Part shown: one piece after another, positions 1,185-10,755 of the stretch | Layout of the letters: each line of letters starts with the position of its first letter | Numbering within the stretch: the first letter of the stretch is position 1 | Origin: Escherichia coli | Lineage (GTDB): Bacteria > Pseudomonadota > Gammaproteobacteria > Enterobacterales > Enterobacteriaceae | Assembly (NCBI RefSeq): GCF_044324785.1 | Contig: NZ_CP172127.1 | DNA: 64,000 bases | Reading direction: 5' to 3' (one strand) | Notes under the pieces: generated by a model | Told to the model about the DNA's origin: nothing | The model's input: only the letters and a program-made list of their open reading frames with translations | Database searches by the model: none | Program-made: the position numbers and the translations under genes

Positions 1185-1508
1185 TTAGAGAAAGACAGGG
1201 AAGGCGGAATGATGGCACTGATATGACAAAGTGAATTCCGTATTCAAACATAAGGAACCCGCAAAGAGGCTACAGTTGCCTACTGGCTGACCAAAGGGGA
1301 TAGCGTGGGTATAGCCTTCCTGCTGGCATGCGCGATCGGCGATCCCGCGACTGACATAACGATCGGTACGGGCATGCTGCAAAAAAGCCTGATCATAAAC
1401 CAACCGAACAATACCTGTTGCCGCGTCAACTTCGCCCACATGAGCCTGGCGAGTTACTGTGCACCCCGCCAGCGTTATTAATGAAAGAGTCAGAATCAGA
1501 AGTCTCAT
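1185..1508 (-). CDS. yecR: Lipoprotein YecR
   Basis: ORF track, 107 aa, lipobox LAGC near N-terminus; synteny. Confidence 0.85.
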   Translation of the reverse strand: MRLLILTLSLITLAGCTVTRQAHVGEVDAATGIVRLVYDQAFLQHARTDRYVSRGIADRACQQEGYTHAIPFGQPVGNCSLFAGSLCLNTEFTLSYQCHHSAFPVFL

Positions 1509-1769
1509 GGTCCAGCCAGAAGAGTAAAAGAAAGCAGTATTTTACGCGTTACAGCGCTGCGACAATGGCCGGAAAAGACGCCTGGCAGGCGCTATTTCTT
1601 GCCATCTGTATGTGTCAGAAAGGGGGGGCTGCTTTTTGATTATCATTTTTATAACATTAAAGAGGTATTTGTGTGATTTGCATCACATAAAGATTGATTT
1701 TTGTGATGGTTGTCATATTATAAGCGCAAAGACAATAACACCTGCATAACAAATAGTCGGAGTGCCGCG

Positions 1770-1856
1770 ATGAAACTGCGCAAGATCCTGAAAAGTATGT
1801 TCAATAACTATTGCAAGACGTTCAAAGACGTACCGCCAGGCAATATGTTCCGATAA
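1770..1856 (+). CDS. azuC: Small protein AzuC (28 aa)
   Basis: ATG at 1770, reads MKLRKILKSMFNNYCKTFKDVPPGNMFR then TAA; too short for the ORF track; followed by a terminator. Confidence 0.75.
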   Translation: MKLRKILKSMFNNYCKTFKDVPPGNMFR

Positions 1857-1857
1857 C

Positions 1858-1884
1858 AAAAAACCTGCTCCGGCAGGTTTTTTT
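1858..1884 (+). terminator. Rho-independent terminator after azuC
   Basis: Stem acctgc / gcaggt followed by a run of 7 T. Confidence 0.7.
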
Positions 1885-1970
1885 GTGTCCTGATGACAGT
1901 GGATGTGACTATCGCTGAAGATGTAAAGCCGCTACTATAACGGCTTTCAAAATGCTATCAGGAGTTTACG

Positions 1971-2222
1971 ATGTCCCAGCCGCTGAATGCCGATCAGGAA
2001 CTGGTTTCTGATGTGGTTGCTTGCCAGTTGGTTATCAAACAAATTCTCGACGTTCTGGATGTAATCGCGCCCGTTGAAGTTCGCGAAAAAATGTCCAGCC
2101 AGCTGAAGAATATCGACTTTACTCACCATCCCGCTGCCGCAGACCCGGTCACCATGCGGGCAATCCAAAAAGCCATCGCGCTGATTGAACTCAAGTTTAC
2201 CCCACAGGGTGAATCCCATTAA
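1971..2222 (+). CDS. yecJ: DUF2766-family protein YecJ
   Basis: ORF track 83 aa; synteny between azuC and ftnB. Confidence 0.85.
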
Positions 2223-9975: not shown

Positions 9976-10755
9976 AACCTGTTCCTTATTCTGTGAACTT
10001 CAGGTGACATTAAAGCTTTACTCCTAATGGAGAAACGACGCAATCCCAACTCAGTCAAACAGGTAAATATTAGTCTGATTATTAGTAAAGACAATTAATC
10101 AATCACTCTCGGTGATCATATGATTTCAACTGTAATTATAAGAAAATAATGTACTGATTCTCCATATTAAACAAGTGGTTAATATATGTAAAACATTTTA
10201 TTAACATTAAGTTGATTGTTGCCTTTCTTTGTATTTAATTAGTTTGTTGTGCGGTAAGTGTCTGTTTAAAAATAGCTTATCTGGTATTGCATTAAAGCAA
10301 TTATTTATAGCAGATGATTATTTACGGTGAGTTATTTTAACTGTGCGCAACATCCCATTTCGATTATTCCTGTTTCATTTTTGCTTGCTAGAGTCGCGAA
10401 AAACTTTTTAACAGATTGAAATACACCCAAAACAAAAGTATGACTTATACATTTATGTTAAGTAATTGAGCGTTTTGTGTGATCTGTATCACACATTATT
10501 GAAAATCGCAGCCCCCCTCCGTTGTATGTGAGTGTAGTGACGAGTAAAGTTGCGTCGATTTAGGAAAAATCTTAGATAAGTGTAAAGAACCCCTTCTATT
10601 TGTAAGGACTTATTGAATCCCAAAAAGGGGCTCTGCCTGTTGCAGCTTATCGCAACTATTCTAATGCTAATTATTTTTTACCGGGGCTTCCCGGCGACAT
10701 CACGGGGTGCGGTGAGACCGCATAAAAATAAAGTTGGTTATTCTGGGTGGGAATA

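What the first reader, a model, noticed from the sequence alone, without database searches (positions are those of the whole stretch)
1770..1884. 28-codon small-protein gene (azuC) missed by the ORF track
Reading the intergenic DNA between yecR and yecJ shows ATG-initiated MKLRKILKSMFNNYCKTFKDVPPGNMFR followed directly by a strong terminator. It was first described as an sRNA and later as a small protein, and it shows that sub-60-aa genes exist below the ORF-track cutoff.
Basis: partly seen in the sequence, partly recalled or inferred. Interest (0 to 1): 0.25.

Follow-up and report, generated by a model that had tools for sequence, protein, structure and literature searches.

The report
Known small gene azuC (AzuCR RNA)

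Summary
An ATG at 1770 opens 28 codons (MKLRKILKSMFNNYCKTFKDVPPGNMFR) ending at TAA 1854-1856. A strong hairpin and T-run terminator follows (about 1858-1884), between yecR and yecJ. The peptide is identical to RefSeq AzuC (WP_010723106.1). The DNA is found in 5418 of 5426 complete E. coli genomes, and the peptide passes NCBIfam NF033642 (75.9 bits, cutoff 30).

In 80 yecJ-anchored loci from other species, 58 keep an intact ORF of 27-29 codons. Third-position variation dominates (24 of 27 columns, against 9 and 10), and pN/pS is 0.16 (0.99-3.3 in the other frames, 1.9 antisense).

The unit is the 159-nt AzuCR dual-function RNA (window 1728-1886), with a conserved sigma-70 promoter and two CRP sites (1672-1717), an FnrS pairing site (1739-1745), and a cadA-pairing stretch inside the ORF (about 1809-1840). 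Published work shows that AzuC binds GlpD and that the RNA represses cadA and galE.

Verdict: already known, low interest. Minor additions: the gene is spread over at least 11 sampled genera, with losses in Salmonella, the Citrobacter freundii group, C. koseri, Buttiauxella and one Escherichia lineage.

The parts
1653..1690 (+). Upstream operator region. Published FNR, PhoP and NarP repressor sites mapped from K-12 coordinates: FNR about 1671-1690, PhoP about 1666-1683, NarP about 1653-1669.
   Evidence: K-12 coordinates 1988039-1988076 come from PMC12266141. I mapped them using TSS 1988001 = window 1728 and the window/K-12 alignment, which has no gaps in this stretch. The mapping is arithmetic and the sites were not re-tested here.
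1672..1687 (+). CRP site 1, a perfect TGTGA-N6-TCACA centred near -48.5.
   Evidence: Pattern search. The GTGA and TCACA half-sites are near-invariant across 61 orthologous sequences. CRP repression of azuC is reported in PMC8915982.
1694..1721 (+). Sigma-70 promoter: -35 TTGATT (1694-1699), 16-nt spacer, -10 TATTAT (1716-1721).
   Evidence: Promoter scan, 9 of 12 matches. Both hexamers are 90-100% conserved across genera. The position fits the annotated TSS at 1728.
1702..1717 (+). CRP site 2, TGTGA-N6-TCATA (1 mismatch), centred near -18.5. It overlaps the spacer and the -10 hexamer, a position suited to repression.
   Evidence: Pattern search; conserved across genera. That the position implies repression is inference from standard promoter geometry.
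1728..1886 (+). AzuCR (IsrB/IS092) transcript, 159 nt by RefSeq annotation. It is both the mRNA for AzuC and the base-pairing sRNA AzuR.
   Evidence: NC_000913.3 annotates ncRNA azuR at 1987843-1988001 and CDS azuC at 1987873-1987959. These were mapped through the alignment. The window differs from K-12 at only 3 of 159 nt.
1739..1745 (+). FnrS sRNA pairing site CACCTGC, 25-31 nt upstream of the ORF. It lies inside a conserved 5' UTR block, about 1736-1752.
   Evidence: Position from PMC8915982. The block is 70-100% conserved. It is complementary to GCAGGUG, the FnrS 5' end as I recall it from memory.
1759..1762 (+). Shine-Dalgarno GGAG, 7 nt before the ATG.
   Evidence: Read from the sequence. 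GGAG is present in nearly all orthologues.
1770..1856 (+). azuC coding sequence, 28 codons plus TAA.
   Evidence: Coding-type substitution pattern and pN/pS 0.158.
1809..1840 (+). Predicted AzuR pairing region for the cadA translation-initiation region (cadA -16 to +19). It overlaps codons 14-24.
   Evidence: Local duplex -31.8 kcal/mol against -21.5 +/- 2.9 for shuffles, 0 of 100 as good. The paper shows pairing by compensatory mutations and says the pairing region lies inside the ORF. The exact published coordinates are in a figure I could not read.
1858..1884 (+). Intrinsic terminator: A-tract, CCTGC/GCAGG stem, 4-nt loop, 7-T run.
   Evidence: Fold. The stem is invariant and the loop variable across 52 orthologues, with U-A to U-G changes tolerated.

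Best explanation
The finding is the azuC gene on the AzuCR (IsrB/IS092) dual-function RNA of E. coli. A sigma-70 promoter (-10 at 1716-1721) drives a transcript of about 159 nt (1728-1886) that ends at an intrinsic terminator. The promoter is flanked and overlapped by two CRP sites and by published FNR, PhoP and NarP sites. Ribosomes start at the ATG at 1770, behind a GGAG, and make the 28-aa, +6-charged amphipathic peptide AzuC. [quoted passage not shown] The same RNA, through nucleotides inside the ORF, pairs with the cadA and galE mRNAs and represses them. Translation and pairing compete with each other. The sRNA FnrS blocks AzuC translation by pairing at 1739-1745.

Shown here: the sequence features, identity to the annotated gene, purifying selection on the reading frame, cross-genus conservation of promoter, CRP sites, FnrS site, Shine-Dalgarno and terminator, and in-silico complementarity to cadA.

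Taken from the literature and not testable here: protein detection, membrane location, GlpD binding, and target repression.
For: Identity: the window DNA 1600-1900 is found in 5418 of 5426 complete E. coli genomes, and azuC is annotated under the match in all 12 listed rows. K-12 and strain 042 annotate the same CDS, WP_010723106.1, between yecR and yecJ. RefSeq K-12 also annotates ncRNA azuR over it. NCBIfam NF033642 scores 75.9 bits against a cutoff of 30.

Coding: the ORF is intact in 58 of 80 yecJ-anchored loci. Variable columns at codon positions 1, 2 and 3 number 9, 10 and 24 of 27. pN/pS is 0.158 in frame, 3.33 and 0.99 in the shifted frames, and 1.88 antisense. The one length change inside the ORF is an in-frame 2-codon insertion.

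Regulation: the CRP motifs, the promoter, and both of these plus the FnrS block and GGAG are conserved across genera.

Terminator: -18 kcal/mol, z -5.1, with an invariant stem and a variable loop.

Amphipathic helix: muH 0.526 against 0.236 +/- 0.117 for shuffles, p about 0.01.

cadA pairing: -31.8 kcal/mol, 0 of 100 shuffles as good.

Literature: PMC8915982, PMC12612679, PMC12266141. The Ribo-seq study PMC10746267 lists azuC and glpD in its table of strongly changed genes under acid stress, and names azuC among the most strongly induced small ORFs at pH 4.4.
Against: Nothing contradicts the identification. There are some weak points. My crude duplex method does not distinguish the published galE pairing from shuffles (-22.0 against -22.5 +/- 2.7). 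No Rfam family matches the RNA. The paper's '164 nt' and 'CDS at +40 to +126' differ by a few nucleotides from the RefSeq coordinates, which give 159 nt and +43 to +129. The FnrS site is altered in E. albertii and in one Enterobacter clade, so that layer of control is not universal. Protein-level claims rest entirely on publications, and the primary papers by Hemm et al. (2008, 2010) and Weaver et al. (2019) were not available to read.
Confidence: 0.97

Rival explanations
1. The RNA is a purely non-coding sRNA (IsrB) and the 28-codon ORF is fortuitous.
For: It was first found as an sRNA candidate. Short ORFs are abundant by chance, with 69 of 20 aa or more in 4 kb. The RNA does have base-pairing activity.
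Against: pN/pS is 0.158 and variation concentrates at third positions across 53 distinct sequences. Start, stop and length (27-29 codons) are kept in the sampled genera, and a conserved GGAG sits 7 nt upstream in the window. SPA-tagged protein and ribosome binding are reported in the literature.
Confidence: 0.01
2. The real gene is the longer 48-aa ORF starting at TTG 1710, as the mechanical ORF list gives it.
For: the ORF listing reports 1710-1856 as one open frame.
Against: TTG 1710 lies upstream of the annotated TSS at 1728, inside the promoter. The open stretch upstream of the ATG varies from 1 to 57 codons among orthologues. The 5' UTR shows no codon periodicity, and the GGAG is placed for the ATG at 1770.
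Confidence: 0.005
3. The coding gene is the antisense 48-aa ORF at 1713-1859 on the minus strand.
For: That frame is open in the window and in 54 of 55 orthologue sequences.
Against: pN/pS in that frame is 1.88. Variation falls on its first codon positions, not its third. No promoter or Shine-Dalgarno was found for it. An open antisense frame in codon register is a common by-product of a sense gene (established knowledge).
Confidence: 0.005
4. azuC is a leader peptide with an attenuator that controls the downstream same-strand gene yecJ.
For: The layout of ORF, terminator and then yecJ 114 nt further on resembles an attenuator. The azuC-yecJ adjacency holds in all 58 positive loci, although the search was anchored on yecJ.
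Against: The whole peptide is under purifying selection, not just a few regulatory codons. The consensus fold shows no conserved alternative (antiterminator) structure, only the terminator. yecJ persists unchanged in 22 loci that lack azuC. The published phenotypes are trans-acting.
Confidence: 0.01

Closest known systems
AzuC / AzuCR (IsrB, IS092) of E. coli K-12 (b4663 / b4434)
   Same: The protein is identical. The transcript differs at 3 of 159 nt: +18 T>C and +28 G>A in the 5' UTR, and a synonymous AAA>AAG at Lys5. The neighbours, promoter, CRP sites and terminator are the same.
   Different: Only those three substitutions. At +18 the window carries C, giving CACCUGC where K-12 has CACCUGU. 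That should make the FnrS pairing slightly stronger (inference).
SgrS / SgrT of E. coli
   Same: It is an enterobacterial dual-function RNA: a base-pairing sRNA that also encodes a small protein acting on carbon metabolism.
   Different: In SgrS the coding and pairing regions are separate and the two activities cooperate. In AzuCR they overlap and compete. There is no sequence similarity.
Spot 42 / SpfP (E. coli) and VcdRP (Vibrio cholerae)
   Same: These are CRP-repressed dual-function RNAs linked to carbon source choice. [quoted passage not shown]
   Different: They have different sequences, targets and partner proteins (CRP for SpfP, citrate synthase for VcdP, GlpD for AzuC).

Membership tests
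AzuC small protein (NCBIfam NF033642, stress_AzuC equivalog) | Score above the curated cutoff of the equivalog model | tested here: met
   75.9 bits against a cutoff of 30, E 1.3e-21. The Enterobacter and Kosakonia forms also pass (78.0 and 74.8 bits).
AzuC small protein (NCBIfam NF033642, stress_AzuC equivalog) | Sequence identity to the reference protein WP_010723106.1 / YP_002791245.1 | tested here: met
   28 of 28 residues identical to the annotated CDS of K-12 and 042.
AzuC small protein (NCBIfam NF033642, stress_AzuC equivalog) | Position between yecR and yecJ, on the same strand as yecJ | tested here: met
   The same position holds in 58 loci of other species.
AzuC small protein (NCBIfam NF033642, stress_AzuC equivalog) | The reading frame is under purifying selection, so it is truly coding | tested here: met
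   pN/pS 0.158; 24 of 27 third positions vary against 9 and 10 at positions 1 and 2; control frames give 0.99-3.3.
AzuC small protein (NCBIfam NF033642, stress_AzuC equivalog) | Amphipathic helix | tested here: met
   The hydrophobic moment of residues 1-20 is 0.526, against a shuffle mean of 0.236 (p about 0.01). This is computation only.
AzuC small protein (NCBIfam NF033642, stress_AzuC equivalog) | Membrane association, and binding and activation of GlpD | not testable with these tools
   Reported in PMC8915982. At 28 aa the peptide is below the length limit of the structure and homology tools.
AzuCR / IsrB dual-function RNA | A discrete transcript of about 160 nt bounded by a sigma-70 promoter and an intrinsic terminator | tested here: met
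   Promoter-like site at 1694-1721; terminator z -5.1; RefSeq azuR maps to 1728-1886. No transcript data were examined for this strain.
AzuCR / IsrB dual-function RNA | CRP operator sites in the promoter | tested here: met
   A perfect site at 1672-1687 and a 1-mismatch site at 1702-1717. These are two of only three such matches in the 64-kb window, and both are conserved across genera. CRP binding itself was not tested.
AzuCR / IsrB dual-function RNA | FnrS pairing site 25-31 nt upstream of the ORF | tested here: met
   CACCTGC at 1739-1745. It is conserved in most orthologues.
AzuCR / IsrB dual-function RNA | ORF-internal complementarity to the cadA translation-initiation region | tested here: met
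   Window 1809-1840 against cadA -16 to +19: -31.8 kcal/mol, 0 of 100 shuffles as good.
AzuCR / IsrB dual-function RNA | Complementarity to the galE coding region | tested here: inconclusive
   The best local duplex, -22.0 kcal/mol, equals the shuffle mean of -22.5. The paper demonstrates pairing by compensatory mutation. My method ignores accessibility.
AzuCR / IsrB dual-function RNA | Match to a curated RNA family model | tested here: not met
   No Rfam 15 family matches beyond sub-threshold, terminator-driven hits such as STnc370 at 33 bits against a gathering score of 54. This says that no such model matched; it is not evidence against identity.
Leader peptide / transcription attenuator of yecJ | A conserved alternative antiterminator structure that competes with the terminator | tested here: not met
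   RNAalifold on 52 orthologues finds only the terminator and one small ORF-internal hairpin.

The most novel reading that the evidence does not exclude
The protein-coding function of azuC, with its CRP and FnrS control, is ancestral to a large part of the Enterobacteriaceae. It was seen in 11 named genera here, more than the 'limited number of enteric bacteria' stated in the literature, and it has been lost repeatedly: in Salmonella (which keeps a remnant), the C. freundii group, C. koseri, Buttiauxella and one Escherichia lineage. The AzuR riboregulator arm against cadA would then be a young refinement centred on Escherichia, built on the protein-constrained codons 14-24. The evidence: complementarity to E. 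coli cadA is -27 to -32 kcal/mol in Escherichia but mostly -17 to -26 elsewhere, and several host genera are classically lysine-decarboxylase negative (my own knowledge).
Probability: 0.35. Interest if true: 0.3.

Novelty: already known. Interest (0 to 1): 0.08.

Why it matters
For the scan, this is a positive control. A reader working from raw sequence recognised a genuine gene below 60 aa that a length-filtered ORF track hides, and the call survives every test. Biologically nothing new is added to the core story. azuC is annotated in RefSeq, has its own NCBIfam model, and has been characterised functionally (GlpD activation; cadA and galE repression; control by CRP, FnrS, FNR, PhoP and NarP). 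The only modest additions are the wider taxonomic spread, the pattern of lineage-specific losses, and the observation that the cadA-pairing nucleotides coincide with the invariant peptide core.

Tried and rejected
By their stated limits, the representative search, structure prediction and encoding-contig look-up need at least 30 aa. I replaced them with a yecJ-anchored scan of species genomes plus local tblastn and nhmmer.

2. Rfam: no family matched. The sub-threshold STnc370, rsmX and RNAI hits are driven by the terminator.

3. The simple terminator scan did not report the azuC terminator. Folding showed it is real.

4. Global duplexfold of the whole RNA against 200-nt targets gives inflated, uninformative duplexes. 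I replaced it with 32-nt local windows.

5. The galE pairing could not be reproduced above background.

6. The single-sequence MFE fold pairs the Shine-Dalgarno region (about 1756-1769) with the ORF 3' end (about 1833-1854), with z only -1.9. The 52-sequence consensus fold does not keep this pairing, so I dropped it.

7. Extra synonymous constraint on the cadA-pairing codons within Escherichia: there are 3 singleton synonymous changes in codons 14-24, against 6 mostly shared ones in codons 1-13. The azuC synonymous difference per site is 0.27, against 0.35 for yecJ. The numbers are too small to claim anything.

8. Pfam: no family.

9. The primary papers PMC2614699, PMC2798279 and PMC6401488, and the PNAS supplement, were not available.

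Full report
OBSERVATION

The sequence is as described. An ATG at 1770 opens 28 codons, MKLRKILKSMFNNYCKTFKDVPPGNMFR, closed by TAA at 1854-1856. A GGAG sits at 1759-1762, 7 nt before the ATG. Directly after the stop lies AAAAAACCTGC-TCCG-GCAGGTTTTTTT (about 1858-1884). It folds at -18 kcal/mol, against -6.2 +/- 2.3 for dinucleotide shuffles (z -5.1, 0 of 200 as good).

The mechanical ORF list gives the frame as 48 aa from TTG 1710, still below a 60-aa cutoff. The flanking ORFs are yecR (1185-1508, minus strand) and yecJ (1971-2222, plus strand), with ftnA, ftnB and araF further out.

A 28-codon ORF alone is not unusual: 69 ORFs of 20 aa or more overlap the first 4 kb. So the case has to rest on other evidence.

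IDENTITY

The DNA at 1600-1900 is present in 5418 of 5426 complete E. coli genomes, and the feature under the match in all 12 listed rows is 'azuC: stress response protein AzuC'. K-12 and strain 042 (the best match, 99.3%) annotate the identical protein WP_010723106.1 in the same position. RefSeq K-12 (NC_000913.3) additionally annotates ncRNA azuR at 1987843-1988001 over CDS azuC at 1987873-1987959. Through the alignment, this maps to window 1728-1886 for the RNA and 1770-1856 for the CDS.

The window's transcript differs from K-12 at 3 of 159 nt: two changes in the 5' UTR and one synonymous change at Lys5. The peptide passes the NCBIfam equivalog NF033642 stress_AzuC at 75.9 bits, cutoff 30. 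Pfam has no family for it, and Rfam has no matching model.

The protein search tools refuse queries this short. I therefore anchored on the neighbour yecJ and fetched 80 loci from species-representative genomes, whether or not they held azuC.

An azuC-like ORF lies roughly 110-200 nt upstream of yecJ in 58 of them. It occurs in Escherichia (including albertii and whittamii), the Citrobacter amalonaticus/sedlakii group, Enterobacter, Lelliottia, Leclercia, Kosakonia, Huaxiibacter, Pseudenterobacter, Pseudescherichia, Silvania and Pseudocitrobacter.

In every case the ORF is intact. It is 27 or 28 codons long, starts with ATG (GTG in one Enterobacter clade), is preceded by a GGAG-type Shine-Dalgarno (one locus has GGGG) and is followed by the same terminator. 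The only length change inside the ORF is an in-frame two-codon insertion in Pseudocitrobacter, which gives 29 codons if the upstream ATG is the start.

Among 53 distinct 81-nt coding sequences:
- Variable columns number 9, 10 and 24 of 27 at codon positions 1, 2 and 3.
- pN/pS is 0.158 in frame.
- pN/pS is 3.33 and 0.99 in the two shifted frames.
- pN/pS is 1.88 in the codon-aligned antisense frame.

The open stretch upstream of the start varies from 1 to 57 codons. TTG 1710 lies upstream of the TSS, so the 48-aa reading is excluded. Fourteen residues are invariant: I6, L7, Y14, C15, T17-G24, M26 and F27. The frame is conserved and under purifying selection, so the refuter fails.

THE WHOLE UNIT

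Across 61 sequences the following are near-invariant, while the surrounding intergenic DNA is not:
- the -35 hexamer TTGATT (1694-1699) and the -10 hexamer TATTAT (1716-1721);
- a perfect CRP palindrome at 1672-1687;
- a second, 1-mismatch CRP site at 1702-1717 that overlaps the -10;
- a 5' UTR block at about 1736-1752;
- the GGAG;
- the terminator stem.

The two CRP-type sites are two of only three such matches in the whole 64-kb window.

The 5' UTR block contains CACCTGC at 1739-1745. This is exactly where PMC8915982 places FnrS pairing, 25-31 nt upstream of the ORF.

A 2025 study adds FNR, PhoP and NarP repressor sites at K-12 1988039-1988076, which map to window positions of about 1653-1690.

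MECHANISM (FROM THE LITERATURE, WITH WHAT I COULD CHECK)

PMC8915982 reports the following:
- The RNA was first found as sRNA candidate IS092/IsrB and later shown to encode AzuC, detected as an SPA-tagged protein and by ribosome binding.
- AzuC is an amphipathic, membrane-associated peptide that co-purifies with GlpD and raises dehydrogenase activity.
- The RNA, as AzuR, represses cadA and galE by direct pairing through nucleotides inside the ORF.
- Translation and pairing interfere with each other.
- CRP represses transcription, and FnrS represses translation.

An independent Ribo-seq study lists azuC, next to glpD, in its table of strongly changed genes under acid stress, and names azuC among the most strongly induced small ORFs at pH 4.4.

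My checks:
- Residues 1-20 have a helical hydrophobic moment of 0.526, against 0.236 +/- 0.117 for shuffles, and the net charge is +6.
- Window 1809-1840 is complementary to cadA -16 to +19, at -31.8 kcal/mol against -21.5 +/- 2.9 for shuffles (0 of 100 as good).
- The galE pairing could not be distinguished from background with this crude method.
- The consensus fold of 52 orthologues supports only the terminator and a small ORF-internal hairpin. It does not support the long-range Shine-Dalgarno sequestration seen in the single-sequence MFE fold.

RIVALS

- A purely non-coding RNA with a chance ORF is excluded by the substitution pattern.
- The 48-aa upstream-extended ORF fails on TSS position and lack of conservation.
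- The antisense ORF fails on its substitution pattern (pN/pS 1.88).
- A leader-peptide attenuator for yecJ is unlikely. The whole peptide is constrained, there is no conserved antiterminator, and yecJ persists in 22 loci without azuC.

WHAT IS MILDLY NEW

[quoted passage not shown] Here it appears in 11 named genera, and the NCBIfam model already recognises those forms.

Losses are lineage-specific:
- Salmonella arizonae and diarizonae keep a degraded remnant of the ORF 3' end and terminator behind a different 212-aa gene.
- C. koseri, the C. freundii group and Buttiauxella lack it near yecJ.
- Escherichia sp. MOD1-EC7003 has a clean yecR-azuC deletion.

The cadA-pairing nucleotides coincide with the invariant YC-TFKDVPPG codons. 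Complementarity to E. coli cadA, used only as a proxy, is best in Escherichia and weaker elsewhere. This allows, but does not prove, that the sRNA arm is a recent addition to an older protein gene.

VERDICT

It is incomplete, because the unit is a dual-function RNA with an upstream regulatory region. The element is already known and annotated, so interest is low.

Noticed in passing
L003 2370-2430 (Escherichia sp. MOD1-EC7003): yecR and azuC are cleanly deleted although YecJ is 100% identical to the window's. Only a mutated copy of the terminator (AAAAAACTGTTCCGGCTGGTTTTTT) remains next to the ftnA-side intergenic DNA.
   Followed up: partly
L017 1695-2413 and L049 (Salmonella enterica subsp. 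arizonae and diarizonae); L010 (C. koseri): A 212-aa ORF occupies the slot upstream of yecJ. In Salmonella a degraded remnant of the azuC 3' end plus terminator follows it (nhmmer E 1e-4 and 2e-3), which suggests ancestral presence and later loss. C. koseri has the same inserted gene without the remnant.
   Followed up: partly
L019, L032, L038-L041, L044 (Enterobacter/Lelliottia clade); L033; L008 (E. albertii): One clade uses a GTG start, has Arg16, and has AGTTGT in place of the FnrS site CACCTGC. L033 has the altered site with an ATG start. E. albertii also has the site changed, to CAGATAT. FnrS control may therefore not be universal.
   Followed up: no
L081 2316-2405, L082 2315-2404 (Pseudocitrobacter): There is an in-frame two-codon insertion near the N-terminus (MKQRMRKILK...), the only indel seen inside the ORF.
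   Followed up: no
window 1713-1859, minus strand: A 48-aa antisense ORF in codon register with azuC is open in the window and in 54 of 55 orthologue sequences. Its pN/pS of 1.88 marks it as a by-product of the sense gene.
   Followed up: yes
window 10478-10493: A second perfect CRP-type palindrome, TGTGATCTGTATCACA. It is the only other perfect match in the 64-kb window.
   Followed up: no
window 1728-1894: There is a bookkeeping discrepancy. RefSeq annotates azuR as 159 nt (window 1728-1886, CDS at +43 to +129), whereas PMC8915982 speaks of a 164-nt RNA with the CDS at +40 to +126. A 164-nt RNA starting at 1728-1731 would end 7-10 nt past the T-run.
   Followed up: partly
window 1806-1916, both strands: Sub-threshold Rfam hits to STnc370 occur on both strands (33 and 27 bits, gathering score 54). 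They reflect the symmetric layout of A-tract, hairpin and T-tract, so the terminator could in principle work in both directions.
   Followed up: no
window 1818-1850 (codons 17-27): The motif T-F-K-D-V-P-P-G-x-M-F is invariant in all 59 orthologous loci compared (the window and 58 fetched loci; Pseudocitrobacter excluded). It lies outside the N-terminal amphipathic helix. It may be a specific protein-contact motif, and it overlaps the cadA-pairing nucleotides. The terminal Arg28 is present only in Escherichia and one C. amalonaticus locus.
   Followed up: partly
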